28,306 nucleotides of DNA from a bacterium (GTDB lineage Bacteria; UBP7; UBA6624; JBBIMK01): NCBI GenBank assembly GCA_037444445.1, contig JBBIMK010000026.1, positions 1 to 28,306 on the forward strand. Reading direction: 5' to 3'. The position numbers and the translations under genes were made by a program. Below the pieces are notes generated by a model. It worked only from the letters and a program-made list of their open reading frames with translations, did no database searches and was not told where the DNA came from. This document shows positions 2,589-28,306 of this stretch, one piece after another. Positions within the stretch are counted from its first letter, which is position 1, and each line of letters begins with the position of its first letter.

Positions 2589-3464
2589 ATGAATGGAAAA
2601 AGAGGGAGCGGTCTTTCGCAGGGTAGGAGTGTAGCTCTTGCGCTGCTTTGTTCCACTCTTCTTTTTACTTGCCGGAAGCCGTCCGCCAGTTCCACGGTTG
2701 AACAGTCAGGCGGTGCTTCGCCTTCCACTGGCACTGTGTATGAGGTGCAGCGAGTGATTGATGGAGATACGGTGGAGCTATCCAGTGGAACCCATCTTAG
2801 ATACCTGGGCATCAATACGCCGGAAAAGAAGGAACCTTACTTTGAGAATGCCACCCTGTATAACCAGAAATTGGTGATGGGAAAAAGGGTGCGGGTGGAA
2901 ATGGACGTTCAGCCTTACGATTCATACGGGCGACTTCTGGGGTTTGTTTTCGTGGACCGGGTGAATATCAATGTGGAGTTAGTCCGTGCTGGAATGGCTC
3001 ATGTGATGATTATTCCACCCAATTTAAAATATGCGGAAGTCCTCCAGAAGGCGCAGGAAGAAGCCCGAATCGCCGGGCGGGGCATCTGGACGCTGTTAGA
3101 GTATCAAGCCCCTTTGAAACTCACCAGCTTCCATTATAACCCGCCAGGGGATGAAGCGGCCGACCCGAACAGGGAATACCTGCGGCTGGTGAACCTGACT
3201 GGGGAGCCTTTGAACCTTCAGGGATACATCCTGAAGGACTCCGACGGTCATTCCCTTACCTTCCCGGATCTTGAACTCTCACCCGGCTATACGCTGGTGG
3301 TGCATTCGGGGAAGGGGAAGAATCAAACTTCTCCAGAGTACCAGCAGGAAATCTACTGGCAGTCCGATGTGCCTGTCTGGAACAACGATGGGGACGAGTT
3401 GCAACTTTATGACGCAGCGGGGAAGTTGATACTCAGGCGCTCCTATCGCGGCGGGCAAAAATAG
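2589..3464 (+). CDS. Secreted thermonuclease (SNase-like) fused to a lamin-tail (LTD) domain, probable lipoprotein
   Basis: The ORF opens at GTG 2553, and ATG 2589 (MNGKRGSG...) is the more likely start. The signal sequence ends LLFTC (lipobox-like). SNase motifs are VIDGDTVEL, LRYLGINTPE, YGRLLGFVFV and VELVRAGMAHV. The C-terminal EYLRLVNLTGEPLNLQGYILKDSDGHSLTF...NNDGDELQLYDAAGKLI matches the LTD pattern. Confidence 0.8.
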   Translation: MNGKRGSGLSQGRSVALALLCSTLLFTCRKPSASSTVEQSGGASPSTGTVYEVQRVIDGDTVELSSGTHLRYLGINTPEKKEPYFENATLYNQKLVMGKRVRVEMDVQPYDSYGRLLGFVFVDRVNINVELVRAGMAHVMIIPPNLKYAEVLQKAQEEARIAGRGIWTLLEYQAPLKLTSFHYNPPGDEAADPNREYLRLVNLTGEPLNLQGYILKDSDGHSLTFPDLELSPGYTLVVHSGKGKNQTSPEYQQEIYWQSDVPVWNNDGDELQLYDAAGKLILRRSYRGGQK

Positions 3465-3586
3465 AAGGTAGAAAGCAGAAAATCAGAGTGCATTCTGGGA
3501 AAGCCCTTGAGGTATTGAGCATCGGGCTTACATTTCTACCCTTCTGCTGCACGACGCACGGCTTCTGAGTATGGGTGGAAGGGAAG

Positions 3587-3595
3587 TGGTATAAT
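3587..3595 (+). promoter_or_regulatory. Extended -10 promoter element (TGgTATAAT) for rnpB
   Basis: TG at 3587-3588 and TATAAT at 3590-3595 sit about 7 nt upstream of the predicted RNase P RNA 5' end. No good -35 was seen. Confidence 0.4.
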
Positions 3596-3601
3596 GGTAG
3601 T

Positions 3602-4006
3602 GAGGGATGGGTCGGGCGGTCGCTCCTCCGAATTATTCGGGGGGGAGGAAAGTCCGGACTCCACAGGGCAGGACGCTCCGGAAAGCGGAGCCTTCCCGGC
3701 TGAGAAGTTGGGAGGAGGGAAAGTGCCACAGAAACGATACCGCCCCGACATCCTGTCGGGGTAAGGGTGAAAAGGTGGGGTAAGAGCCCACTCCACCCGC
3801 CCGTGAGGGTGTGGTGGGGGCAAACCCCGTCCGGAGCAAGACCAAACAGGAGAGGGTGGTCCCGCCCACTCCGGTTCCCAATGGGAATCGGGGAACTCCG
3901 GGTCGGTCGCTTGACCCCTGATGGGAAAAGTATCAGGGGCAGAGGAATGACCGCCACCCCGGCTTTTGAGTCGGGGAACAGAATCCGGCTTACAGACCCA
4001 TCCTTC
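3602..4006 (+). ncRNA. rnpB: RNase P RNA, bacterial type A
   Basis: Universal blocks are present in order: GGAAAGTCCGGACTCCACAGGGCAG, AGTGCCACAGAAA, GGTAAGGGTGAAAAGGTGGGGTAAGAGCCCAC, GCAAACCCC, and ACAGAATCCGGCTTA. The P1 stem forms between 5' GAGGGATGGGTC and 3' GACCCATCCTTC, followed by a T-run. The ends are approximate to a few nt. Confidence 0.9.
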
Positions 4007-4033
4007 TTTTTATATTCACGCATCGGACTGAGA

Positions 4034-4933
4034 ATGGAAGAGACGGGACGAAAATTCCTCTTCTGGTTCGTCATTCTGGTCTTCCTTTTTATCGTGGCGC
4101 TGGTGGTGCGAGTTTCCGGGGTTTCCCACCCCTCTTCATCGGGAGCCTCCGCCTCTCGTAACCTCTTCCCCTTCCAGGAAATTATCCCCCTTTACCCCCA
4201 GCCGGCGCCCGTGATTCCAGAAGTCACCAATGAGGGCTTTGACATCCAGGTTCTGGCACCAGTGGTTTTTACCCCCCACACTGGAAATTTAGAAATCCTC
4301 CTCCGTGTCGCCGGAACCCCGCCCTATTCTCCTGTCATCGTGGTGGATGACTACCCTCTTTTTAGAGGCTTCTCGGTAACAACGGAAAGCAACAACCTCA
4401 CCCTCTCTTTTGATGAAGAAATCCAACTGGCGGATGGTATACGCACCCTCGTGATTTATCTCACCGATGGACAAAAAAGAACAGTCTCCGTTTCTATCCA
4501 GGCTCTCATTGAGAGTCCAGAAGTACGAACCTACCGAGAAACTGTTCTTCAATGGGCTCAGTCGGTGGAGCAGAAGTTTCCTGCCGATGCCAGCCTGGAC
4601 CGGGAAACCCTGAATGCTTATGTTCAGTTCCTTCTTCTGCCCATCCGTTACGGTTCCATTCCCAGAGCCTCTCTCCAGGGGGAATTGGCGAAGATTGAGA
4701 AAGCCCTGTATGACTCGCGGCCCACCTTCTGGAAAGCGGTATACGGGAAACCGTTAACCGAATTAGAAATTCATCTTGTGGCTCGGGTATTTCAGAAGAA
4801 CCTGGCACCCATCTTACTGAAAGTGGAGAAGGCATCGGGAACTTTCGTTTCCCCCTTCGTGTCCTTGAACGACCTTTCTCGGAAATCCACCCAGATTCTC
4901 GGTGGCAATCCTTATTCATCGGGGTATAGGTGA
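4034..4933 (+). CDS. Hypothetical single-pass membrane-anchored protein
   Basis: The first 89 codons of track ORF 3767..4933 lie on rnpB and are discarded. The in-frame ATG at 4034 gives MEETGRKFLFWFVILVFLFIVALVV (N-terminal TM helix). No family recognised. Confidence 0.55.
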   Translation: MEETGRKFLFWFVILVFLFIVALVVRVSGVSHPSSSGASASRNLFPFQEIIPLYPQPAPVIPEVTNEGFDIQVLAPVVFTPHTGNLEILLRVAGTPPYSPVIVVDDYPLFRGFSVTTESNNLTLSFDEEIQLADGIRTLVIYLTDGQKRTVSVSIQALIESPEVRTYRETVLQWAQSVEQKFPADASLDRETLNAYVQFLLLPIRYGSIPRASLQGELAKIEKALYDSRPTFWKAVYGKPLTELEIHLVARVFQKNLAPILLKVEKASGTFVSPFVSLNDLSRKSTQILGGNPYSSGYR

Positions 4934-19118: not shown

Positions 19119-19140
19119 TTTGGGGGTCAGACCCCAAAAG
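19119..19140. repeat. Palindromic repeat, copy A (TTTGGGGGTCAGACCCCAAAAG)
   Basis: Member of the TTTTGGGG-N5-CCCCAAAA family. It lies 3 nt downstream of the stop of the 19143..19949 gene. Confidence 0.7.
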
Positions 19141-19142
19141 TC

Positions 19143-19949
19143 CTAATCTTCTATTTTGGTGAGGTCCCGTAAGATTGTATCAAGCGGCGGAATGCCGGTA
19201 ACAGGTGCAGATATCCGGGGGGTGGAACGAGGCACTGCACGCGCGTCCTCAAAGACCTCAGCAACAGGCAGAGGCAATTGTTCGATCGCCCCTCCGAAAG
19301 AAACGATAAGCGCCATCTTATAGTGCCATCCAGGGGTGTAACGGTGGAACACACTTGCCCCGTTTAGACGAACAAACTCGCCATTGCCGTCTCTCCAATA
19401 GAGATACGCCCATTCTACCGGTTCCGCAGGGCCAGTGAAGAATTCGCTTTTCACCTCAACCTGTGTGTCATGCGGAACGAGAAGATAGTACCCGTCCACC
19501 GTGTCCGAGTAGTCAATTCCACTGAATGTAATGGATAGGGCCATCGGTGCTGTCCTGGAGGTGAACCTCAGGGTGCTGCCCAAGTCCTCCACTTCCACGA
19601 CGCGTTTTGGCGGTCCCTGGGCAATTTCCTCTTCCAGTTCCGGCTTGGTCAGGAACCAGGTCGCTTGTATTCTGGATACCCAATTTTTTACACCAGGGAT
19701 GAATTGGGTAAGGGATTTCAAGTCTAATGTTGAGTCTGGCTCAGCCTTCCCAGGCGCGACAAGGGCAAGAACTGCCTGGTTACCCTCCGGTCCCACCCAA
19801 TAAATTACTCCGGAGGAGCCGTCTGGAACAGATATTTTTTCAGTCGAGGCGTCTATGAAATTCATTGGATAGTACGACCGTCCAAATGGGTCAAACATCC
19901 CTCCAGCGGGCAATATCCCAGACCTCCAAATCGTGCTGGAATGTCTCAA
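19143..19949 (-). CDS. Hypothetical protein without a signal peptide, bracketed by palindromic repeats
   Basis: 268-aa maximal ORF with a TTG start at 19949. In-frame ATGs at 19898 (preceded by GGAGGG) and 19865 are alternative starts. No family recognised. Confidence 0.55.
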   Translation of the reverse strand: MRHSSTIWRSGILPAGGMFDPFGRSYYPMNFIDASTEKISVPDGSSGVIYWVGPEGNQAVLALVAPGKAEPDSTLDLKSLTQFIPGVKNWVSRIQATWFLTKPELEEEIAQGPPKRVVEVEDLGSTLRFTSRTAPMALSITFSGIDYSDTVDGYYLLVPHDTQVEVKSEFFTGPAEPVEWAYLYWRDGNGEFVRLNGASVFHRYTPGWHYKMALIVSFGGAIEQLPLPVAEVFEDARAVPRSTPRISAPVTGIPPLDTILRDLTKIED

Positions 19950-19957
19950 ATAATGTC

Positions 19958-19984
19958 ACCTTTTGGGGTCAGACCCCAAAATCT
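19958..19984. repeat. Palindromic repeat, copy B (ACCTTTTGGGGTCAGACCCCAAAATCT)
   Basis: Exact 27-nt duplicate of copy C, lying 43 nt away. The core is a perfect 10+1+10 palindrome. Confidence 0.8.
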
Positions 19985-19991
19985 CAGTTAT

Positions 19992-20195
19992 TTATCTTCC
20001 ACCTTTTGGGGTCAGACCCCAAAATCTTTTCCAATACCGAGCTCTTGACTTGACTAACCAGTACCGAAGAAGTTGGCGCGGCCCATCAGGGTTAGCATCG
20101 TGGGTGGATTGCGAACCCGAGAAAGCAGGTGCACCGAACACCAATAGGAAAACCAGTTCGCTCATAAATAAAGTATGCTTCCGCAACATCATCAT
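19992..20195 (-). pseudogene. Possible remnant of a secreted-protein gene, with only the signal peptide left and the 3' end running into repeat C
   Basis: 67-aa ORF. MMMLRKHTLFMSELVFLLVFGAPAFSGS looks like a Sec signal peptide. Only ~38 residues follow, and the last ones (RFWGLTPKGGR) are encoded by the palindromic repeat itself. Confidence 0.25.
20001..20027. repeat. Palindromic repeat, copy C
   Basis: Identical to copy B. The 16-nt spacer between them is CAGTTATTTATCTTCC. Confidence 0.8.
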
Positions 20196-20289: not shown

Positions 20290-20320
20290 CACCGTTTGGT
20301 GCCTGACCCCAAAAGGGGTG
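20290..20320. repeat. Palindromic repeat, copy D (degenerate left arm: CACCGTTTGGTGCCTGACCCCAAAAGGGGTG)
   Basis: Shares ~28 nt with copy G (CACCGTTTGGTGCCTGACCC[C]AAAAGGG). The right arm GACCCCAAAA matches the family core. Confidence 0.65.
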
Positions 20321-20422: not shown

Positions 20423-21658
20423 TCAGGGGATTCGTATGGGGTAGCCGAGTGCGAACTCATCTATGCCCGGCTTGCCGTTAGAATGAGACTGGATAAAATA
20501 TCCTGAAAACTCTATTCCGTCTCCCGTCAGTGAAGCCAGCACCTGTCCGGGCTTCATTTTCTTCTTTGCTTCCACTGCTTTTGAACCCGATAAGAAAGTG
20601 GGGCTGGCTAAACGGTCCCACAGAAGTGGCCGAGGATTTACAGGGGCTATACGCTCAAACCATTCCTGTACAGAAATACCTGATGGAGGCCTGTCTAAGT
20701 TGGTATAAATATTCCAGGGCAGGGTGGCTGCCTCGGAGAGAAGACGGAACATTGCATCTGTAATGTGGTCTTCCTCCAGCAAATAACTGCCGGGCTTCCC
20801 CTTGCCCGCCACATATATGGATATGCGGAATTCATTTTGAGACCCCGGAAACCAGATGAGAGCAAGTTTTTCTCTTTCCTTCTTCCAATCTACCATCAGC
20901 ACAGGGTTTTTCTGATATGTTGCCGGGAGCTCCCACAGATTCGCACGAGTTTGTTCTACTTCTTCCCATGTTTCGGGGAGACGCTGTGTTATATTGAAAA
21001 AAGTAGAAATGCCTTGCAGAACTGTCAGGAATAATTGGTCTATCTCGCCCAGTCTTTTATTTGGAACCCACTCCCCGTAGCCTGTATAATGAAATGCGGA
21101 AGCCTTTCCGTTGGAGCAGACCAAGATGAAAGACCATCCGTTAGGAAGCCCCCAGGAAGCTGCCCGCCCGGATGGCAAGGATAGGGAAACTTCCTTCAAA
21201 GGATACTGAACTTTTAGATAAGGAAAATCAGGCTCCCGAGAGAATCGCCAGTAGCCCAGGTTCCTGGCAAACACCGCCACAGAATCCAACCATCCATACA
21301 TCTTCAGGATATTTTCCTGCTCTTCTGAGAAGGCTTCAATGAATCGGGCTGTTTTTCCGACTGGTTTGTAGATAACGGGCTGACCTGTTTTACGGGCTTC
21401 TTGACCCACTTCTAACATCTCCTTCTTCCACCGCTTCATTTCTCGTTGCATGCGGAAGAGCAATGACATCGCTTCCTTTACATCATCAGGTGGATTAAGG
21501 TAGATAGAAAAAGCAGATTCAAAAGTTACCGGACAGCGTTGAATATAAGAACACCCCTCTTGTAGGGCAAAGACGCAACAAGTGAGGAATGAAATGAAGA
21601 GTGTAACCTTAGTAAATCCAGTCGCCCGTGCCGTCCTCAGCTCCTTCTCCCCACACAT
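20423..21658 (-). CDS. Hypothetical secreted protein, divergent member of the pseudopilin-motif paralog family
   Basis: The track ORF starts at 21682; ATG 21658 gives MCGEKELRTARATGFTKVTLFISFLTCCVFAL (signal-like). Either start overlaps the upstream gene by 50 or 74 nt, and no ATG, GTG or TTG lies downstream of that gene's stop before the hydrophobic segment. Family-like modules are FFNITQRLPETWEEVEQ...QKNPVLMV and ATLPWNIYTNL...APVNPRPLLW. Confidence 0.6.
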   Translation of the reverse strand: MCGEKELRTARATGFTKVTLFISFLTCCVFALQEGCSYIQRCPVTFESAFSIYLNPPDDVKEAMSLLFRMQREMKRWKKEMLEVGQEARKTGQPVIYKPVGKTARFIEAFSEEQENILKMYGWLDSVAVFARNLGYWRFSREPDFPYLKVQYPLKEVSLSLPSGRAASWGLPNGWSFILVCSNGKASAFHYTGYGEWVPNKRLGEIDQLFLTVLQGISTFFNITQRLPETWEEVEQTRANLWELPATYQKNPVLMVDWKKEREKLALIWFPGSQNEFRISIYVAGKGKPGSYLLEEDHITDAMFRLLSEAATLPWNIYTNLDRPPSGISVQEWFERIAPVNPRPLLWDRLASPTFLSGSKAVEAKKKMKPGQVLASLTGDGIEFSGYFIQSHSNGKPGIDEFALGYPIRIP

Positions 21659-22505
21659 AGAACTCGTGAGCCTGGGTTCCATCTGGTTCTATCCAGTAAT
21701 TATAACTCACATCACCCGGGTGAGGGGTCGCCCATCCGTCATCCATAGGAACTTCCTGGATGAAGCGGCTCTGGAAGGGATTCCACATCTTCTTCAGCAC
21801 AGGGAATCTACGAAGCAACTCAGTGTAGGTGGGAGGTAGAGACCCCATATATTCGTCCTCAAGATTGCTATCGACACGATTGGGGTATATAGATTGAATA
21901 TAGAGAAAGTCCAGTATCCACCCGCACATCCAGGAGCGCTGGACGGTTTCCGGTGCATCAGGCGGATATTTCGGATATGGCTTCTCCTGCTCCTGTTGAT
22001 GATAGATTGATAAGTCAGAACCTGGATAACTGCGAGTATGAAACTGTTTTTCGCCATTGTGAACAACGGCTATTTCCACTGTAAGGTCTTTGGTTTCCGG
22101 ATTATAGGTCCATCGTAGATTCCCGGGAGTTGGATCTGATTCCTCCTGGACCGGCTGTCCTGTATAAGGATTAACTAAATCCTGAGACCGCACACAGGCA
22201 TAGATGGACTGCCCCAGTTGAGAATAAGTTGAGGGATATTGGAAACTGAAAAAAGCCATGGCTGTTACCTCGTCCATAATGTAATCCAGGGTCTGGATAG
22301 CACGAATGTATTTACACCATTCATCAGGGTCCCATCCTTCTGGTGGCGTGCTACAAAACAACCCACCAAACAGAACCGGATCCTCCGGCGGGTCACCTGT
22401 AAGTCCAGCACCACCCCCTCCTTCCAGGCCTACGCCGTTCAACAGAACGCCCAACGCAACCACCAACAAGCCTGTCATCAGGCTTCTTATCCATTTTCTT
22501 TTCAT
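21609..22505 (-). CDS. Hypothetical secreted protein, pseudopilin-motif paralog
   Basis: The ATG at 22505 is preceded by GGAAAGGAGGGATAAGGAA. The signal peptide is MKRKWIRSLMTGLLVVALGVLL. Module 1 is FFSFQYPSTYSQL...LVNPYTGQPVQEESDPTPGNL. Module 2 is GSLPPTYTELLRRF...MWNPFQSRFI. Confidence 0.7.
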   Translation of the reverse strand: MKRKWIRSLMTGLLVVALGVLLNGVGLEGGGGAGLTGDPPEDPVLFGGLFCSTPPEGWDPDEWCKYIRAIQTLDYIMDEVTAMAFFSFQYPSTYSQLGQSIYACVRSQDLVNPYTGQPVQEESDPTPGNLRWTYNPETKDLTVEIAVVHNGEKQFHTRSYPGSDLSIYHQQEQEKPYPKYPPDAPETVQRSWMCGWILDFLYIQSIYPNRVDSNLEDEYMGSLPPTYTELLRRFPVLKKMWNPFQSRFIQEVPMDDGWATPHPGDVSYNYWIEPDGTQAHEFYVWGEGAEDGTGDWIY

Positions 22506-22535
22506 TTCCTTATCCCTCCTTTCCATTTTGAGTAG

Positions 22536-22587
22536 CACCATTTGGTGCCACTATCTTATAGTGGCTTGAACTTTTGGGGGCAGACCC
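22536..22587. repeat. Composite intergenic repeat E: CACCATTTGGTGCC + CCACTATCTTATAGTGG palindrome + CTTTTGGGGGCAGACCC
   Basis: Three adjacent palindromic pieces lie upstream of the 21609..22505 gene. The minus-strand reading GGGTCTGCCCCCAAAAGTTCAA matches copy F on the plus strand, so E is inverted relative to F. Confidence 0.6.
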
Positions 22588-22643
22588 TGGAAGCCCGGAT
22601 GGTAAGGAGAGATAATAAAGTTGAATGTTCATTCTTTTAATCT

Positions 22644-23390
22644 CTAACTGCCTTTTTGAATGGTAGCCTGAATGGTCTGCCGCAATGCTTTTGCTGTGCC
22701 CAGAGGGTATATTGCCACCAGTCTATCCCCTTTGCCAATATAGCGATATAAAACCAGTTCTTTCCAGTTTGCCACATATTTTGGGACAGGAGATTTTACC
22801 TTAAAATCCTTCAATGTGCCCCAGGTGAATAGTTCTTTAATGGGTTTTCCATCCACCGGCGAGACCGGATTTAACTCTAAGGGGTCACCCCATTGCTTCG
22901 CCAGCTCCTCGGGGGTCTCAGGAAATTTGCCTGTGAGCAAAACATATCCTTGAAATGCTGCCCCCAGATTATTCGCCAGCGCCAGAGAGTATCTATCTTC
23001 CCTGTTTTCTTCCGTAGTGGGCGGCTTGAAGGTGTCATTTTTCAAGGTGGTGGTCTGAGAACTGTCCGAAATCCCTGGCAAAGTCAAATGAAGCAACCCC
23101 GGTTTCTCCTTCACAAAAAAATAATCGCCTGAAGATGGATTTTCCTTGCAGAGCATGGGTTTGCCGGTGAACGGGTTCCGGGGATGCCGAAAATACAGAG
23201 GTGAAGTGGTATACTCGGGGCAAGTCTCAGGATAGCGCCCGTTATACACACCCCAGAACTCCAGGGAAGTCAGGAGATACATCCTTTCACCCAGCAGGCG
23301 CATCTGCTCCGGTGAGAGTTTCTCTCGTTGAACCCCTGTCAGAGCGAAAGCTAAACCCGCGGCAATTAAAAGCCACATCCCCTTTTTCAT
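22644..23390 (-). CDS. Hypothetical secreted protein, pseudopilin-motif paralog (clearest GspG-like motif)
   Basis: The ATG at 23390 is preceded by GAAGGAGGGATGCAGA. The N-terminus is MKKGMWLLIAAGLAFALTG. Module 1 is SLEFWGVYNGRYPETCPEY...HPRNPFTGKPMLCKENPSSGDYFFV. Module 2 is AFQGYVLLTGKFPETPEELAKQW...LNPVSPVDGKPI. Confidence 0.75.
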   Translation of the reverse strand: MKKGMWLLIAAGLAFALTGVQREKLSPEQMRLLGERMYLLTSLEFWGVYNGRYPETCPEYTTSPLYFRHPRNPFTGKPMLCKENPSSGDYFFVKEKPGLLHLTLPGISDSSQTTTLKNDTFKPPTTEENREDRYSLALANNLGAAFQGYVLLTGKFPETPEELAKQWGDPLELNPVSPVDGKPIKELFTWGTLKDFKVKSPVPKYVANWKELVLYRYIGKGDRLVAIYPLGTAKALRQTIQATIQKGS

Positions 23391-23413
23391 TCTGCATCCC
23401 TCCTTCTCTATTT

Positions 23414-23827
23414 TCAATTGATTGAACAATCTCCAGTAGCACAGTGAACCAGGTTAAGTGCGGTATCCATAGCCCTGTAGGCGTCATTGTAACAGTCGCA
23501 ATGTGTGGTATTAAACGACATGATTGCACCTATTCTTAAATTTTGACATGTTCCTTTATATCCGGCATACTCACAGCAGGGCACCTCGCATTCCGAATCA
23601 CACTCACCACATTGAGTGCATGCTACCATTAGTATCATCCTTGCCGTACGGGTATTCGTGAGAGTTCCCTCGCAATACCCCCCGCCCGCACAAGGAAAAT
23701 AAAAAGGCGTGGTCCACGTTACAGGGTCTGTAGACTCTGTAGTGCAACAGGCTGCTTCAGCAGTCGCTGCCATCAGCCCCGAAATCACCACCATCATCAC
23801 TACCATCATCATAACTCCCTTTTTCAT
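23414..23827 (-). CDS. Cys-rich secreted protein 1 (137 aa; 15 Cys in the 112-aa mature part)
   Basis: I shorten the 249-aa track ORF to the in-frame ATG at 23827, giving MKKGVMMMVVMMVVISGLMAATAEA as a canonical signal peptide. My reasons: the paralogous cassette at 26151..26247 begins only ~45 nt upstream of this ATG, and the upstream part of the ORF is partly encoded by a palindromic repeat. The mature region is rich in CxxC and CC. Confidence 0.65.
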   Translation of the reverse strand: MKKGVMMMVVMMVVISGLMAATAEAACCTTESTDPVTWTTPFYFPCAGGGYCEGTLTNTRTARMILMVACTQCGECDSECEVPCCEYAGYKGTCQNLRIGAIMSFNTTHCDCYNDAYRAMDTALNLVHCATGDCSIN

Positions 23828-23870
23828 CTTCTGCAACCCCCCCTTCTCTTTTCTTTTGAGGGTCATCCCC
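23774..23870 (-). repeat. Shared 5'UTR + signal-peptide cassette, copy 1
   Basis: ~97 nt that aligns with 26151..26247 with about 4-5 substitutions and 2 single-base indels by eye. Similarity fades at the AEA signal-peptidase site. Confidence 0.8.
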
Positions 23871-23881
23871 ATTTGCCCCTC

Positions 23882-23910
23882 CATATAATATATATCCTCA
23901 GAAGTTGCAA
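23882..23910 (-). promoter_or_regulatory. Candidate promoter for Cys-rich gene 1
   Basis: On the minus strand, TTGCAA (23910-23905), a 17-nt spacer, then TATATG (23887-23882), about 55 nt upstream of the ATG. Weaker than the copy-2 promoter. Confidence 0.3.
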
Positions 23911-24134
23911 AATTTACCAAAACGCCTCTTCTATTATCGTTGTCTTCGCATGTTTTGCATATTAACTTACCCCGATTCTTTTTGAAGCCATTTTTAAGGT
24001 GTGCCTGGAAAACTTTTTTCTCTCGGGGTGGAAGATTTTCCAGCAGGGCAGTCAGTTTCTGCAGTGCCTCTTTTGCCTCCTTTTTCGTCTCCTCCTCGCA
24101 AAGTTTTTCCAGGACATCCTCCTGCCTGCTGGGA

Positions 24135-24158
24135 CTTTTGGGGTCTGCCCCCCAAAAG
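24135..24158. repeat. Palindromic repeat, copy F (CTTTTGGGGTCTGCCCCCCAAAAG)
   Basis: 9-bp arms CTTTTGGGG/CCCCAAAAG with a 6-nt centre, between the 24200..25003 gene stop and the Cys-rich gene 1 promoter region. Confidence 0.7.
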
Positions 24159-24199
24159 TTCAAAAATGGGAAATCAATCTTAGAGAATGGAACGGTTAC

Positions 24200-25003
24200 T
24201 TACGGTAAACGGTTGAGTAAGTTGTCCGGCTTCTGCTTCTCTGCTTTAGGAGGTAGAATATAGTGAGCATGGCAAGGCATCATTTTATCGGCTGGGTTAT
24301 AAGATACTTTATAAATTGCCTTACCTTTGGGAAAGTGGAGCGAGAAAAACACACGCCTATCGGATTGAGCCCAAAGTTTCAGCCTTTTATTTTCCCAGAG
24401 TTCCAGCGGATTTTTCCCTTCCAGTGGGTCTTTCATCATTGTATAGGGTTCTTCTAAAAACTTGAGAAATTCCTCTGGATGGCGTAGCCCTTCTCTACAA
24501 TATGCTCTCATCCACTGACGCATCAAAAGTTGTCCATAACCCACTAACTTCATCTCCTCTTCATCATACCCTGCTTTCAGAGCACGGGCAAAGGGTGAGA
24601 CGGGTGAAGGGTTTCCTTTTCCCCACGGGATGTCCAGTGGATGGTCACCGAGGGAGGAGATTTTCTTCCCGTTAGCACTCCACAGCGTTAATTCAGTGAT
24701 TTTCTCGCCATCAGGAGATAATTGCATGCAGTAGTCACCTGGGGAAGGAGAATCACATACGTTTTTGATAGGTTGACCAGTCAGTGGATTCACGGGCTCC
24801 ATATAAAGGTAGCCTGCTCGGGATATTTCTTCCAGACTTGTGGGTAACTTCCCAAACCGCTCCATATAAATAAATACGGTAGCCTGATAATAATAACCCT
24901 CCCACTTCTCTAACGAGACCGGCTGAGATGTGGCAAGCGTCCCTATCCAGAGAATCAACACATAAATGTTAAAGACTGAAAATCGCGATATTGGCCCCGC
25001 CAT
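24200..25003 (-). CDS. Hypothetical secreted/membrane-anchored protein, pseudopilin-motif paralog
   Basis: 267 aa. The start lies 11 nt after the upstream gene's stop, which suggests coupling. It has a hydrophobic N-terminus (FSVFNIYVLILWIGTLATS). Module 1 is VFIYMERFGKLPTSLEEISRAGYL...PVNPLTGQPIKNVCDSPSPGDYCMQL. Module 2 is AYCREGLRHPEEFLKFL...KDPLEGKNPLELW. Confidence 0.7.
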   Translation of the reverse strand: MAGPISRFSVFNIYVLILWIGTLATSQPVSLEKWEGYYYQATVFIYMERFGKLPTSLEEISRAGYLYMEPVNPLTGQPIKNVCDSPSPGDYCMQLSPDGEKITELTLWSANGKKISSLGDHPLDIPWGKGNPSPVSPFARALKAGYDEEEMKLVGYGQLLMRQWMRAYCREGLRHPEEFLKFLEEPYTMMKDPLEGKNPLELWENKRLKLWAQSDRRVFFSLHFPKGKAIYKVSYNPADKMMPCHAHYILPPKAEKQKPDNLLNRLP

Positions 25004-25014
25004 GTTTTAGATGT

Positions 25015-25764
25015 TCAAGGTGCTCGAAAAAGCACAGGATGAGTTTCGGAGTAAATAAATGAACCATCTTGGATGGTAAAGGTATATCGCCTGCCACCGG
25101 GGAAATCCGGGTCGTTCAGTGGAATAACTTCATTTAACATCGTGGTTTTTGAGACAAGTGGAGCAAATTCAGGGGGAATGTAGGGGCCTAAATCGATCCA
25201 GTTTCCTGGATAATAGTTTCTATCCAACCGGATAAATCGCTCCATAATTGTGGTTTCTGCGATGGTGGCAGAATACATAGTATTCACAAAGGCTACATCT
25301 CTACGCTGTCCTATATCGCTCCATTGGTTTAAGTGCAAGCCCCCTGCATCCGCTTCCACCATATTGGTGTTAATCTTTCTCTCATAATATTTCCATAGAG
25401 TGGGCCCAGACCCTTCATCCACATCCACATAAAAAGATAGAGTAAAAGATGAAGGAAGATTATTCGTAAGAGTATAATGACCCGAAGTAGGAGTCGGTGT
25501 TTCGTGGATTGGAGTATTGTCACAGGGGTTCATCAATAAAGCGGGTAGATAACCCTGGTCATAAAGAGCTTGCGTGGATGCAGGCAAGGAGTTATTGTCA
25601 TAGTAGTAGAGAATGTAAGAATGAGAGATGGATACGGCTTTACCAAGCCAGTTCTTGAATTCTAACGTGTCCTTGATGAGCATATCTCCGCCTTCCTGCC
25701 ACGCCTGAGCCCATCCAGGCAGTAAAATCACCATAAATACCCAAAGATACAATGCTTTTCTCAT
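25015..25764 (-). CDS. Hypothetical secreted protein, pseudopilin-motif paralog
   Basis: The ATG at 25764 is preceded by AAGGAGGCTGAAGAAA. The signal peptide MRKALYLWVFMVILLPGWAQA has an AQA cleavage site. Module 1 is ILYYYDNNSLPASTQALYDQGYLPALLMNPCDNTPIHETPTPTSGHYTL. Module 2 is ERFIRLDRNYYPGNWIDL... Confidence 0.75.
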   Translation of the reverse strand: MRKALYLWVFMVILLPGWAQAWQEGGDMLIKDTLEFKNWLGKAVSISHSYILYYYDNNSLPASTQALYDQGYLPALLMNPCDNTPIHETPTPTSGHYTLTNNLPSSFTLSFYVDVDEGSGPTLWKYYERKINTNMVEADAGGLHLNQWSDIGQRRDVAFVNTMYSATIAETTIMERFIRLDRNYYPGNWIDLGPYIPPEFAPLVSKTTMLNEVIPLNDPDFPGGRRYTFTIQDGSFIYSETHPVLFRAP

Positions 25765-25796
25765 TTTCTTCAGCCTCCTTATATTTTTATTAATTT

Positions 25797-26189
25797 TCAA
25801 GGGTCTTTCCGACACTCATCCCACACATTATCCCCGTCTGAGCACTGGAAACACCTTTGTCCTTCCGGGCAGCCACACTCATTATTCGGATCATAATTGC
25901 ATTTTTTCCCTCTACCGAGAGGAGCGAAAATTGGACAAAAAGAGTTCTGACCTGTAAGACCCAGCCCGCCAGTGGTAGATCCAGTTCCTGTTCCATCTGC
26001 AGAAGAACTCAACGGAAGAAACACGATGCCCTCAGCATTCTGAATTATGGAAATCACGTCGCCATCCCAAATGTCTCGACTAAGACTAACCCACTGATTT
26101 TCGCCATCACACTTACAAACTGAGGGTTTTGCCTCCGCCGAAGAAGCCACCAGCCCCGAAATCACCACCGCCATCACTACCATCATCAT
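25797..26189 (-). CDS. Cys-rich secreted protein 2 (130 aa from the ATGATGATG start; 9 Cys in the mature part)
   Basis: MMMVVMAVVISGLVASSAEA is followed by a Gly/Thr-rich linker and the C-terminal CNYDPNNECGCPEGQRCFQCSDGD. The upstream ATG at 26205, equivalent to MKKG in copy 1, is out of frame because the A-run is 6 here versus 5 in copy 1. GGGAG just upstream of ATGATGATG could serve as the RBS. Confidence 0.6.
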   Translation of the reverse strand: MMMVVMAVVISGLVASSAEAKPSVCKCDGENQWVSLSRDIWDGDVISIIQNAEGIVFLPLSSSADGTGTGSTTGGLGLTGQNSFCPIFAPLGRGKKCNYDPNNECGCPEGQRCFQCSDGDNVWDECRKDP

Positions 26190-26247
26190 AACTCCCTTTT
26201 TTCATTTTCTGCAACCCCCCCATCTTTTTCTTTTGAGGGTCATCCCC
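26151..26247 (-). repeat. Shared 5'UTR + signal-peptide cassette, copy 2
   Basis: See 23774..23870. Confidence 0.8.
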
Positions 26248-26306
26248 CCGCTCCCCTCGCAGTAAATACAAATGTCTTCGCCATTTCTTATCCCTCAGGC
26301 AATTTT

Positions 26307-26335
26307 ATATTACCACAGGCAAAAAAACTTGTCAA
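26307..26335 (-). promoter_or_regulatory. Sigma70-type promoter for Cys-rich gene 2
   Basis: On the minus strand, TTGACA (26335-26330), a 17-nt spacer, then TAATAT (26312-26307), about 100 nt upstream of the coding start. This is the best consensus match in the window. Confidence 0.5.
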
Positions 26336-26364
26336 GTGGGCCCACTTTTTGAGTCAATAGATCC

Positions 26365-26393
26365 CACCGTTTGGTGCCTGACCCAAAAGGGTC
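26365..26393. repeat. Palindromic repeat, copy G (CACCGTTTGGTGCCTGACCCAAAAGGGTC)
   Basis: Near-duplicate of copy D. It lies between the CPBP gene stop (26402) and the promoter at 26307..26335. Confidence 0.65.
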
Positions 26394-26401
26394 CTGAAAA
26401 G

Positions 26402-27412
26402 TTAGTGGGTTAAGAATAGAAATATAATTAACAGAGCGTTCCAGAGAAAGTGAGATGCCCATAAAGGAACCAGGTCGCGCGTTCGTGAAAATACATAAAG
26501 TCTTACCGGAGTGACCAGAATAATAATAGCGGAAAGATAGGGGTCTATCGGCACCCCTGCGTAATAATCGGCGTGGAAAATCGCCCAAACCACGCCCGGA
26601 AGAAGGTAAGGCAAAAAACAGGGTCGAAGCCACTCCTTCAGGTGAACGAACAGGAAAATCACGAGGATTTCTTCCTGAAAAGTGTCAAAGAGAAGGGAGA
26701 CGAATAAATAAAAATAACTCATGTCTATGGAAATTTCAAGGGGCTTTTCAGGTAGTCGCAAAATGTAAACCCAGATAACTCCCAGAATGAGCATCTGGAC
26801 ATATCCTATACCTAATAGCACGAGCGTCCACTTGACCCTTTCTCTGAAACGATTCCGAATGAATCCCAGAGCCTCTACCCGGTTCCACATAACCCATTGG
26901 AAGTATAGGAGGCAAAGAGCATACCAGAAGCGCTGCCCTCCGAAATCGAGGTATCTAAACAGGCGTATGTAGTCCAGTTGATTGAGCCTGCGCCTGGTAA
27001 CCAAATATAGTTCGTGCATCCAGGAGCCCCTGAAGTGTGGGAAATTGCGTAACAAAATGTCCCGCCCAATGTAACTGAGGAGGGGCTTTAAGAGAGGGAA
27101 AATCAACAGGGCTCCGGTTAGATATTTGCCCCAATCTCTCTTCGGTATTTTCAGATGCTTAAATCCCTTCCAGAACACGAGAAAAAAGGCTATAAAGGGA
27201 AGAATGTAGACAAGGCCGCGGTTAACAAAGCCCACACTATAAAGCCATTCATAGCCGTATTTGCACGAATTGAAATCGAAGAACTGGATAACCCAGGAAG
27301 GGAAATAACGGCAGGGAATGGGAATAGGAGGTAAACCTTGAAGCAGTGCCTCATTTACTAATAAAAAGTAAGCAATAACCAGTAAAAGAGAAGTTTTATG
27401 CTCTACTTTCAC
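26402..27412 (-). CDS. CPBP-family (CAAX protease / bacteriocin-processing, Abi-like) intramembrane protease with a long N-terminal polytopic extension
   Basis: 336 aa with a GTG start; highly hydrophobic. The C-terminal third carries FQEEILVIF (EE motif, though the usual Arg at +5 is absent), WAIFH (aromatic-xxx-H) and SHFLWN (HxxxN). The spacings are roughly 30-40 aa, as in PF02517-type proteins. Confidence 0.7.
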   Translation of the reverse strand: MKVEHKTSLLLVIAYFLLVNEALLQGLPPIPIPCRYFPSWVIQFFDFNSCKYGYEWLYSVGFVNRGLVYILPFIAFFLVFWKGFKHLKIPKRDWGKYLTGALLIFPLLKPLLSYIGRDILLRNFPHFRGSWMHELYLVTRRRLNQLDYIRLFRYLDFGGQRFWYALCLLYFQWVMWNRVEALGFIRNRFRERVKWTLVLLGIGYVQMLILGVIWVYILRLPEKPLEISIDMSYFYLFVSLLFDTFQEEILVIFLFVHLKEWLRPCFLPYLLPGVVWAIFHADYYAGVPIDPYLSAIIILVTPVRLYVFSRTRDLVPLWASHFLWNALLIIFLFLTH

Positions 27413-27419
27413 ATATTCT

Positions 27420-28037
27420 CTATTCTATGTCCATCCCTTCCCAGGGGCAATCCACGATGGTACCGCTGGGAAGTCCCTCGGATGTAACAGTCTCACAGTG
27501 ATAGTCATCCAATTCGTTGATGATGCCATCACTGTTTTTATCTTTAATGAGTCCGGCATAGTCCCAGCCAACTCCCGAACAAGAATACTGGTTACTGTTC
27601 TCCTGCCATATTCCACCTCCTGCAATGCAGGAGGTGCGTAGGTTAGCAACTGTGATGTCAAGCGGACAGGGAATTCTTGGATTTTCAAGCCCGGGATTTT
27701 CTGGTCCTTCGGTACAAATCACCTCATCATCACCTGTCTCATTCTCATAGGGTGGTTGATCCCATTTCCCGTCTTTGCCTTTAGGTTGGAATTTGTTGTC
27801 ACCATCATCCGTTAATTGAACATATACTATGTACGGGCAGTGAAGATCGGGGTAGCACGGTTATTCACATGTGTAGTGAGATTTACCAGTACCTGGTGGA
27901 TGAAAGTCCCCCCAGTTAGCCTCACACAATGCCTGAAACGCGTCGCGAATCTTATCAAACCTTCTCTTTTCGCGAAGGGTTCCCCATAGATGACTAAGTT
28001 CACAGGCCGTCATGAGAAATACCATCGCAAGCACCAC
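27420..28037 (-). pseudogene. Cys-rich lipoprotein 3, split by one in-frame TAA (27861-27863)
   Basis: The same reading frame runs from ...RRLKQRITLVVLAMVFLMTAC (lipobox-like LMTAC) through ...GKSHYTCE, the TAA, then PCYPDLHCPYIVYVQLTDDGDNKF... into track ORF 27420..27722. There are 47 open codons between the TAA and the GTG used by the track. No ATG precedes the basic n-region; candidate starts are GTG 28037/28034 and ATG 28025. An EF-hand/dockerin-like loop DKNSDGIINELD is present. Confidence 0.45.
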
Positions 28038-28209
28038 AAGGGTAATGCGTTGCTTCAGCCGCCTGGGGTTCCGAAGATGTGGAATGAACCGCCACTCTCA
28101 CTATCTTCCACCAGAACCTTCTTCACCGGAAGTTACCAGTAAGAAGGAAAATTTGTTTTTGTGAGATTTTTCATCTCACTTTCCGCCCCCTATTTTGAAT
28201 GATTTTTTT

Positions 28210-28276
28210 CTTTTTTGCAAGCCCTTCCATTTTTCCTCTTCCCTTTTCCCTCATTCCCTTGCTCCCTCATCGGGGT
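28210..28276. repeat. CT-rich intergenic repeat, copy Y
   Basis: GCAAGCCCTTCCAT (28217-28230) plus a CT-rich tail, alignable with 20341..20422. It is followed by what may be the stop (TAG, 28277-28279) of a minus-strand gene that runs off the window. Confidence 0.5.
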
Positions 28277-28306
28277 CTACAGCGCCTCCGGGGGACGAGC
28301 CTCCGG

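What the first reader, a model, noticed from the sequence alone, without database searches (positions are those of the whole stretch)
20423..25764. Five paralogous secreted proteins carry a twice-repeated GspG-pseudopilin-like motif but lack a prepilin (class III) signal
The shared pattern is an aromatic helix, then (G/N)x(Y/L/F)P(E/T/A/S)(T/S), then 12-20 residues, then NP(F/L/Y)TG(K/Q)P, then 6-9 residues, then P(S/T)(S/P)G(D/H/N)(Y/L).
- 22644..23390 has VYNGRYPET...RNPFTGKPMLCKENPSSGDYFF.
- 24200..25003 has RFGKLPTS...VNPLTGQPIKNVCDSPSPGDYCM.
- 25015..25764 has DNNSLPAST...MNPCDNTPIHETPTPTSGHYTL.
- 21609..22505 has SFQYPSTY...VNPYTGQPVQEESDPTPGNL.
- A looser second copy occurs in each protein, for example GKFPETPEEL...NPVSPVDGKPI. 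20423..21658 has two loose copies (QRLPETWEEV...KNPVLMV and ATLPWNIYTNL...VNPRPLL).

The motif resembles the major T2SS pseudopilin core as I recall it (ALDMYKLDNSRYPTTEQGL ... LPQDPWGxxYQLLSPGQHGxxDIFSLG). None of the five has the G/FTLIE prepilin cleavage motif; they have ordinary Sec-type or anchor N-termini. Pseudopilin-fold domains that are duplicated in tandem and exported by Sec would be unusual.
Basis: partly seen in the sequence, partly recalled or inferred. Interest (0 to 1): 0.7.

Follow-up and report, generated by a model that had tools for sequence, protein, structure and literature searches.

The report
Sec-exported tandem pseudopilin-head-like protein family
Five neighbouring genes encode exported proteins of an undescribed, rare family whose repeated domain is probably a very distant relative of the head of secretion-system pseudopilins, and family genes almost always follow a gene for a cysteine-rich secreted protein, which suggests the two proteins work as a pair.

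Summary
A profile built only from homologues outside this window hits exactly these five proteins among 203 window ORFs. It finds two domain copies in B and C, a marginal second copy in D, and one copy each in E and A.

No member has a prepilin signal; 70 of 78 family proteins have an ordinary N-terminal hydrophobic segment.

The family has about 85 clusters among 1.8 billion proteins and matches no Pfam or NCBIfam model.

The pseudopilin link is probable, not proven:
- Direct profile-profile comparison with real GspG gives P = 5.5e-4 to 2.4e-6, against 0.03 or worse in controls.
- One intermediate protein, P0028, passes Pfam T2SSG and matches both GspG and this family at 87-96% hhalign probability.
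- High-confidence AlphaFold models (pLDDT 88 and 96) have pilin-like secondary-structure order.
- Foldseek against PDB finds nothing significant; EpsG reaches only TM 0.42-0.45.

A new finding is gene order. In 9 of 10 readable cassettes the family gene follows a hypervariable secreted protein with 6-15% cysteine.

I infer a non-polymerising extracytoplasmic binding partner for those proteins. Function is untested.

The parts
21609..22505 (-). B: 298-aa exported or anchored protein and the most canonical family member, with two domain copies
   Evidence: Non-window HMM gives 108 bits and two domains. AF2 full-length model has pLDDT 87.6 and pTM 0.81. The start codon is supported by homologue P0004.
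22023..22331 (-). B domain 1
   Evidence: Sequence runs helix, QYPSTYSQL, NPYTGQPV, PTPGNLRWTY. AF2 domain model has pLDDT 96.1 with H9-36, H43-47, E79-84, E89-98, E101-109, H112-123. HMM domain E-value is 6e-21.
21642..21950 (-). B domain 2
   Evidence: HMM domain E-value 4e-13 and 2.4e-15 with the domain-2 profile.
22644..23390 (-). C: 248-aa secreted protein with two domain copies
   Evidence: 64.9 bits, with domains at 4e-13 and 3e-6. N-terminus is MKKGMWLLIAAGLAFALTG.
23064..23318 (-). C domain 1
22698..23003 (-). C domain 2
   Evidence: 5.6e-8.
24200..25003 (-). D: 267-aa secreted protein with a clear domain 1 and a marginal domain 2
   Evidence: 67.7 bits. Domain 1 scores 5.5e-17; domain 2 scores 0.004 to 0.09.
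24644..24916 (-). D domain 1
   Evidence: BLASTP matches it to both halves of B and of C.
25015..25764 (-). E: 249-aa secreted protein with one detectable domain copy (25375-25671)
   Evidence: 39.1 bits, domain 1 at 6.7e-12, second half not detected. Signal peptide ends ...LLPGWAQA|WQ.
20423..21658 (-). A: 411-aa divergent member with one detectable domain copy (20771-21055); N-terminal anchor or lipoprotein-like
   Evidence: 21.8 bits, domain at residues 221-295, 7.6e-6. Start is supported by P0005. The L009 homologue has a lipobox.
23414..23827 (-). X: 137-aa secreted protein with 15 Cys, first gene of cassette X-C-B-A
   Evidence: Signal peptide is MKKGVMMMVVMMVVISGLMAATAEA.
25797..26189 (-). 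Y: 130-aa secreted protein with 9 Cys, first gene of cassette Y-E-D
   Evidence: Its signal peptide and 5' leader are duplicated with X.
26402..27412 (-). [not shown]
   Evidence: Pfam PF02517 at 3.6e-6.
27420..27722 (-). W: Cys-rich ORF directly upstream of Z (context)

Best explanation
The five genes encode members of an undescribed family of Sec-exported proteins, either released or membrane-tethered.

Each protein is built from tandem copies of a domain of about 100 residues. The domain has four parts in order:
- a helix of about 28 residues ending in G-x-[YF]-P-x-[ST]-x-x-E-L;
- a loop carrying NP[YF]TGxP;
- a three-stranded antiparallel sheet starting at P-x-P-G-[DN];
- a closing helix.

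The domain is most likely a very divergent descendant of the globular head of a type II secretion major pseudopilin (GspG-like, pilin-type fold). It has lost the class III signal and the hydrophobic alpha1-N polymerisation helix. It therefore cannot be processed by a prepilin peptidase or built into a filament. Instead it acts as a soluble or anchored binding module outside the cytoplasm.

Family genes sit immediately downstream of genes for hypervariable, cysteine-rich secreted proteins. I infer that the tandem-domain protein binds its cognate cysteine-rich neighbour as an immunity-like neutraliser, chaperone or docking adaptor.

Shown here: family membership, the duplication, the type of export signal, the high-confidence fold model, and the gene order. 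Inferred: descent from pseudopilins, and partner binding.
For: - Family and duplication.
- Export signal: no class III motif among 107 proteins, and an N-terminal hydrophobic segment in 70 of 78, ending a median 25 residues before the first domain.
- In the AF2 model of B, the N-terminal helix (2-24) is separated from the domain helix (60-87) by a low-confidence linker.
- The B subfamily has two invariant cysteines, C104 and C194, one per domain. This fits an oxidising compartment.
- GspG link, direct: hhalign P 2.4e-6 and 5.5e-4, against controls of 0.03 or worse.
- GspG link, by bridge: P0028 passes Pfam T2SSG and aligns at 87-96% probability to both GspG and the core family. PDB sequence hits of P0028 are all GspG.
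- EpsG gives the only full-length Foldseek alignments with TM above 0.4 in both normalisations.
- Gene order: a Cys-rich protein (6-15% Cys against a 1.1% background) lies directly upstream in the window (Y then E; X then C), L010, L013, L035/L036, L037 (twice), L011 and L012.
- The domain also occurs fused to BamB-like beta-propellers and as four copies in one protein, as expected of a portable extracytoplasmic module.
Against: - Foldseek against PDB gives no significant hit for either high-confidence model; the best pseudopilin E-value is 0.45 and TM is below 0.5.
- No Pfam or NCBIfam hit for the five proteins; T2SSG is sub-threshold in only 1 of 53 members.
- A profile search against PDB sequences returns only chance RNA polymerase hits.
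- The core-only profile aligns to GspG over just the helix and YPxT stretch, so the similarity could be motif-level.
- The bridge rests on a single protein with no known relatives.
- Partner binding is inferred from gene order alone. One cassette (L038) has a dockerin/Big_7 protein upstream instead.
- The Cys-rich partners share no detectable similarity with each other, so they may not form one functional class.
Confidence: 0.55

Rival explanations
1. The domain is an independent, new alpha+beta fold. Its likeness to GspG (a helix ending in G-x-Y-P-T, then a proline/glycine-rich loop) is convergent or motif-level, not descent. The family is simply a new domain of unknown function in exported proteins.
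For: No significant Foldseek hit and TM 0.42-0.45. No Pfam T2SSG hit. The core-only hhalign covers 30 columns at P 7.8e-4 and 25% probability. The window-only profile gives P 0.004-0.008.
Against: The full-length hhalign runs in correct order over 81-87 columns and scores far above 21 controls. P0028 links both sides at 87-96% probability. Secondary-structure order equals a pilin head. EpsG is the best full-length structural alignment.
Confidence: 0.3
2. They are genuine pseudopilins or pilins with a non-canonical signal, cut by a prepilin peptidase and assembled into a fibre by a type II secretion or type IV pilus machine.
For: Only the remote GspG similarity, plus A's 'ATG|FTKVT' N-terminus.
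Against: No class III motif and no Glu+5 in any of 107 proteins. The hydrophobic segment is separated from the domain helix by about 25-35 residues of linker, so there is no continuous alpha1 helix. The tandem two-head architecture does not fit pilin packing. No secretin, ATPase, platform or peptidase genes lie next to any member seen. The A homologue has a lipobox.
Confidence: 0.02
3. The tandem-domain proteins do not bind the Cys-rich neighbours. They bind something else, such as cell-wall or glycan ligands or a host surface, or are structural envelope proteins, and the shared operon reflects only co-regulation.
For: No interaction was tested. The Cys-rich proteins are not homologous to each other. 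The domain also occurs with beta-propellers and, in L038, next to a dockerin/Big_7 surface protein.
Against: Tight adjacency of 13-95 nt in 9 of 10 readable cassettes from unrelated samples. Both partners diversify rapidly, as expected for co-evolving pairs.
Confidence: 0.13

Closest known systems
Type II secretion major pseudopilin GspG/PulG/EpsG/XcpT (Pfam T2SSG PF08334 with N_methyl PF07963)
   Same: A long amphipathic helix ends in G-x-Y-P-[ST]-T-x-x-G-L, followed by a loop, a DPWG-type Pro/Gly motif and a small antiparallel sheet. Profile-profile P is 5.5e-4 to 2.4e-6. EpsG is the best full-length Foldseek alignment.
   Different: No class III signal, no alpha1-N helix, no Glu5. Two heads in tandem plus an extra C-terminal helix per domain. 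No T2SS genes nearby. No Pfam hit. TM below 0.5.
P0028, a 205-aa metagenomic protein (L014/L015) with two T2SSG-like domains
   Same: Tandem duplication of the same domain without a prepilin N-terminus. It matches the window family profile at E 1.6e-7 library-wide. It too is preceded by a small Cys-rich gene.
   Different: It passes Pfam T2SSG itself. It has no N-terminal hydrophobic segment at all, so it may be cytoplasmic. Its upstream partner is a CXXCXGXG zinc-finger protein.
Bdellovibrio Bd0109 (PMC3818213)
   Same: The paper describes it as a periplasmic/secreted protein whose N-terminus has a putative pilin-like fold. It binds a small secreted partner (Bd0108) encoded next to it.
   Different: It is a YD-repeat protein tied to type IVa pilus regulation. 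No sequence relation was tested here, and it has no tandem duplication.
Bacteriocin or toxin cassettes with adjacent immunity genes, including CPBP/Abi-type immunity proteins (general knowledge)
   Same: A small, hypervariable, disulfide-rich secreted protein is followed by one or more exported proteins, in repeated and diversified cassettes. A CPBP homologue (Z) follows another Cys-rich ORF (W) in the same island.
   Different: No toxin or immunity family was recognised by Pfam, NCBIfam or PADLOC. No activity is known.

Membership tests
Type IV pilin / T2SS pseudopilin (class III signal proteins) | Prepilin leader ending in Gly, followed by F/M-T-L-I/L-E (N-methylation site, Glu5) | tested here: not met
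   A regex over the first 60 residues of 107 proteins gives 0 matches. Pfam finds no N_methyl hit.
Type IV pilin / T2SS pseudopilin (class III signal proteins) | Continuous alpha1 helix whose hydrophobic N-terminal half (alpha1-N) drives filament assembly | tested here: not met
   In the AF2 model of B, helix 2-24 is separated from domain helix 60-87 by a low-confidence linker. Family-wide, a median of 25 residues separates the hydrophobic segment from the first domain.
T2SS major pseudopilin GspG (Pfam T2SSG PF08334) | Significant match to the family HMM | tested here: not met
   No hit at E of 1 or better for A-E. One of 53 family members hits at 0.013.
T2SS major pseudopilin GspG (Pfam T2SSG PF08334) | Remote homology by profile-profile comparison | tested here: inconclusive
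   hhalign P values are 2.4e-6 (all domains, 89% probability), 5.5e-4 (A4, 30%) and 7.8e-4 (core only, 30 columns), against controls of 0.03 or worse. The P0028 bridge gives 87-96% on both sides.
T2SS major pseudopilin GspG (Pfam T2SSG PF08334) | Pilin-type alpha-beta fold of the head domain | tested here: inconclusive
   Secondary-structure order matches. Foldseek against PDB places EpsG at E 0.45-0.78 and TM 0.42-0.45, with no hit at E of 1e-3 or better.
T2SS major pseudopilin GspG (Pfam T2SSG PF08334) | Encoded with T2SS or T4P assembly genes (secretin, ATPase, platform, prepilin peptidase) | tested here: not met
   None in the window or in L010, L013, L035-L038. Only short contexts were available.
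T2SS major pseudopilin GspG (Pfam T2SSG PF08334) | Calcium-binding loop between the last strands | not tested
   Model coordinates cannot be inspected with these tools.
Secreted toxin/bacteriocin with adjacent immunity protein | Toxic activity of the first gene product, neutralised by specific binding of the second | not testable with these tools
   Only gene order and hypervariability are seen. No known toxin or immunity family was recognised.

The most novel reading that the evidence does not exclude
The island encodes a previously unrecognised two-gene extracytoplasmic module. A hypervariable, disulfide-rich secreted effector is paired with a cognate binding or immunity protein built from two domesticated pseudopilin heads. 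The module is repeated and diversified in tandem (Y-E-D, X-C-B-A) in an uncultivated lineage. This would be a new use of the pilin fold outside filament systems and possibly a new class of polymorphic effector-immunity pair.
Probability: 0.2. Interest if true: 0.7.

Novelty: new variant of a known kind. Interest (0 to 1): 0.45.

Why it matters
If the pseudopilin descent holds, this would be a case of a pilin or pseudopilin head freed from its polymerisation helix and class III signal, duplicated in tandem and exported by Sec. That would show the pilin fold can be reused as a stand-alone binding module.

The conserved pairing with hypervariable cysteine-rich secreted proteins gives a concrete hypothesis to test by co-expression, binding and toxicity assays. 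The family currently has no annotation in Pfam or NCBIfam and is known only from metagenomes.

If the descent does not hold, it is still a clean new domain family with a confident predicted structure and no structural relative in the PDB.

Tried and rejected
- Word-index homology searches with C, the family alignment and P0028 returned almost only the queries themselves. Only the exhaustive profile search found the family.
- About 17 of its 101 hits are WD40 or other repeat proteins that match profile positions 44-78 repeatedly. These are false positives.
- The recurrent weak Pfam '2C_adapt' hits come only from the NPxTG motif.
- Profile searches against PDB sequences gave chance hits to nitrite reductase and RNA polymerase beta'.
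- A degenerate DNA pattern for NPYTGxPx6Pxx G[DN] found only motif-level matches: 14 in GTDB genomes and 5 in JGI metagenomes. These lie in actinobacterial proteins of about 800 aa and in two large one-domain proteins, with no two-domain members.
- I suspected a sigma-70 region-4 remnant upstream of X. NCBIfam gives E 0.0026, below its cut-off, and BLAST shows no similarity to the sigma-like gene of the syntenic locus L037, so I dropped it.
- PADLOC found no defence families. Pfam found nothing in seven Cys-rich partners.
- The source organism could not be identified: no names, accessions or record were retrievable.


Full report
**What is there.**
The region 20.4-27.7 kb is a run of minus-strand genes:
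- W (27420-27722), a Cys-rich ORF.
- Z (26402-27412), a CPBP/Rce1-like protease homologue (Pfam 3.6e-6).
- Y (25797-26189), a secreted protein with 9 Cys.
- E (25015-25764) and D (24200-25003).
- X (23414-23827), a secreted protein with 15 Cys.
- C (22644-23390), B (21609-22505) and A (20423-21658).

GC content falls from 0.50-0.57 in the first 20 kb to 0.44-0.48 across this island. Pfam and NCBIfam recognise nothing in A-E.

All-against-all BLASTP is weak. Even so, it links the first half of D to both halves of B and of C.

An exhaustive HMMER search of 1.84 billion representative proteins used a profile of ten half-proteins from the window. It returned 101 hits at E of 1e-3 or better. About 17 of them are WD40-type repeat false positives. 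The rest are proteins of 230-410 residues, nearly all with two matched stretches. Their shared consensus is (R)FPxSFxEL-SPY...NPYTGxPxQxV..PSPGDxTY, present twice.

I rebuilt the profile from 83 domains of homologues outside the window and scanned all 203 window ORF segments. Only A-E were hit:

| Protein | Bits | Domain copies detected |
|---|---|---|
| B | 108 | two |
| D | 67.7 | one clear, second marginal |
| C | 64.9 | two |
| E | 39.1 | one |
| A | 21.8 | one (residues 221-295) |

Separate domain-1 and domain-2 profiles give the same picture. Family-wide, the two halves are clearly homologous: hhalign P = 1.2e-19. The five proteins are therefore true paralogues of a real two-domain family. 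The second copy in E and the additional copies in A cannot be demonstrated.

**Export signal.**
None of the 107 collected proteins (family members, window proteins and false positives) has a G-[F/M..]-[TS]-L-I-E motif. Seventy of 78 family proteins have an N-terminal hydrophobic segment, ending a median 25 residues before the first domain. Five have lipobox-like sequences. Most of the remaining eight look like truncated gene calls.

In the AF2 model of B, the N-terminal helix (2-24) is joined to the first domain helix (60-87) by a low-confidence linker. There is thus no continuous pilin-type alpha1 helix.

A's 'ATG|FTKVT' resembles a prepilin site but lacks Glu5. Its homologue on L009 has the lipobox LTGC instead.

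**Structure.**
With 53 family sequences, AF2 models B at pLDDT 87.6 and pTM 0.81. Domain 1 alone reaches pLDDT 96.1 and pTM 0.87. It consists of a 28-residue helix, a short helix, a long loop, three antiparallel strands and a C-terminal helix.

Foldseek against the PDB gives no hit at E of 1e-3 or better for either model. For the domain model, V. cholerae EpsG appears at rank 17 (3fu1_A) and rank 50 (4lw9_A), with E 0.45-0.78. These are the only alignments covering the whole domain with TM above 0.4 in both normalisations (0.42-0.45). Other alignments of more than 100 columns mostly have TM 0.20-0.27. The one exception, pantothenate synthetase, reaches TMq 0.43 but only 0.22 on the target side. 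This is suggestive but not significant.

**Sequence link to pseudopilins.**
I fetched eight annotated or clearly homologous GspG genes from plasmid records and aligned them (alignment A6). The hhalign results are:

| Query profile | P | Probability | Aligned columns |
|---|---|---|---|
| All 144 family domains | 2.4e-6 | 89% | 81, in order from helix to last strands |
| Domain-1 alignment A4 (official tool) | 5.5e-4 | 30% | 87 |
| Core set, peripheral members removed | 7.8e-4 | 25% | 30 (helix and YPxT only) |
| Window-only profiles | 0.004-0.008 | 5-8% | 24-25 |
| Reversed and 20 column-shuffled GspG controls | 0.03 or worse | — | score 15 or lower |

The strongest argument is an intermediate. 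P0028 is a 205-residue protein with two domains. It matches the window profile at E 1.6e-7 library-wide and passes Pfam T2SSG (7.2e-8, 32.9 bits against a cut-off of 21). Its only PDB sequence hits are GspG proteins.

Its two domains align as follows:

| P0028 domain | Against GspG | Against core family |
|---|---|---|
| Domain 1 | P 2.8e-7 | P 5.6e-9 |
| Domain 2 | P 5.9e-9 | P 4.2e-6 |

Probabilities are 87-96%.

There are two caveats. P0028 has no known relatives. The shared region is mostly the helix, the YPxT motif and the Pro/Gly motif.

I rate descent from a pseudopilin-type head at about 0.65.

**Context.**
No T2SS or type IV pilus genes lie next to any member seen.

Instead, a gene for a small secreted protein with 6-15% cysteine lies immediately upstream. 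The window background is 1.1%.

| Locus | Upstream Cys-rich protein | Family gene(s) downstream |
|---|---|---|
| Window | Y | E, D |
| Window | X | C, B, A |
| L010 | 155 aa, 13 Cys | P0007, then a paralogue |
| L013 | 216 aa, 23 Cys | P0006 |
| L035/L036 | 125 aa, 12 Cys | P0012 |
| L037 | 263 aa, 22 Cys | a 336-aa member |
| L037 | gap-interrupted copy | P0016 |
| L011 | partial ORF, 12 Cys | P0057 |
| L012 | partial ORF, 13 Cys | P0009 |

The one exception is L038, where a dockerin/Big_7 protein lies upstream. Gaps between the paired genes are 13-95 nt.

The Cys-rich proteins are not alignable between cassettes, apart from shared signal peptides and one close pair, L012 and L037. L037 is syntenic with the window, sharing AI-2E transporter and SNase/LTD genes.

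The domain also occurs as four copies in one protein (P0015). In P0038 and P0102, two copies are fused to BamB-like propellers.

**Interpretation.**
The best reading is an undescribed family of Sec-exported tandem-domain proteins. Its domain is probably a pseudopilin head that has lost its polymerisation helix, so it acts as a binding module rather than a fibre subunit.

From the gene order, and from the rapid divergence of both partners, I infer that each protein binds the Cys-rich secreted protein encoded upstream. It could act as an immunity-like neutraliser, a chaperone or a docking adaptor. The W-Z pair (a Cys-rich ORF followed by a CPBP homologue) in the same island is compatible with a bacteriocin-like theme, but nothing here tests activity.

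The main rival is that the fold is new and the GspG likeness is only motif-level. A role as genuine pilins is effectively excluded by the sequence.

**Novelty.**
The family is rare, with about 85 clusters at 50% identity. My motif scan did not find it in GTDB representative genomes. It is unannotated. I file it as a new variant of a known kind (a pilin-type head outside filament systems), with moderate interest.

Noticed in passing
window 19119-19139, 19961-19981, 20004-20024, 20294-20314, 22572-22596, 24136-24156, 26365-26392: A 21-nt palindrome, TTTTGGGGTCAGACCCCAAAA, has two perfect copies. It recurs in the intergenic gaps between the transcription units of the island and around ORF 19143-19949, with 9 strand-matches against 0.01 expected. 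The T-run precedes the stem and the A-run follows it on both strands, so it is not a classic intrinsic terminator. It could be a regulator binding site or a REP-like element.
   Followed up: partly
window 23753-23881 and 26130-26258: A direct DNA duplication of about 130 nt (77-86% identity) covers the 5' leader and signal peptide of the two Cys-rich genes X and Y. The mature parts are unrelated, which suggests cassette shuffling behind a conserved leader.
   Followed up: partly
window 26402-27722: W is a Cys-rich ORF (6 Cys in 100 aa) with no signal peptide in the listed ORF. It lies directly upstream of Z, a CPBP/Rce1-like intramembrane protease homologue, a family often annotated as bacteriocin immunity or maturation.
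   Followed up: no
window 21000-28306: GC content drops to 0.44-0.48, against 0.50-0.57 in the first 20 kb. The island may be horizontally acquired or fast-evolving. The contig ends inside it.
   Followed up: no
window 3604-4008 (+): A bacterial class A RNase P RNA (Rfam RF00010, 251 bits) overlaps the mechanically listed ORFs 3433-4074 (-) and 3767-4933 (+).
   Followed up: no
L014 9734-10618 (and L015): The bridge protein P0028 has tandem T2SSG-like domains and no hydrophobic N-terminus. It too is preceded, 49 nt upstream, by a small Cys-rich gene: a 72-aa, 16-Cys protein of CXXCXGXG zinc-finger type (DUF5351/DnaJ-like). This echoes the Cys-rich-plus-tandem-domain pairing, possibly in the cytoplasm.
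   Followed up: partly
window 23860-24163 (-): The long version of ORF X has an N-terminal extension with a weak sigma-70 region-4-like match (NCBIfam E 0.0026, below the cut-off). It contains one of the palindromes. It shows no BLAST similarity to the double-region-4 sigma-like gene upstream of the cassette in syntenic locus L037, so it is probably non-coding leader.
   Followed up: yes
window 21609-21658: The end of gene B and the start of gene A overlap by about 50 nt. A's N-terminus reads RATG|FTKVTLFISFL, a superficial prepilin-like site without Glu5. Its homologue on L009 has a lipobox instead.
   Followed up: partly
window 19143-19949 (-): A 268-aa ORF with no Pfam or PADLOC match is flanked by three copies of the palindrome. 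Its function is unknown.
   Followed up: no
P0015, P0038, P0102 (metagenomic proteins): The same domain occurs four times in one 460-aa protein (WPxNPWTGxPM variant). It also occurs twice in front of BamB-like PQQ beta-propellers. The domain is therefore a portable module beyond the two-domain architecture.
   Followed up: partly
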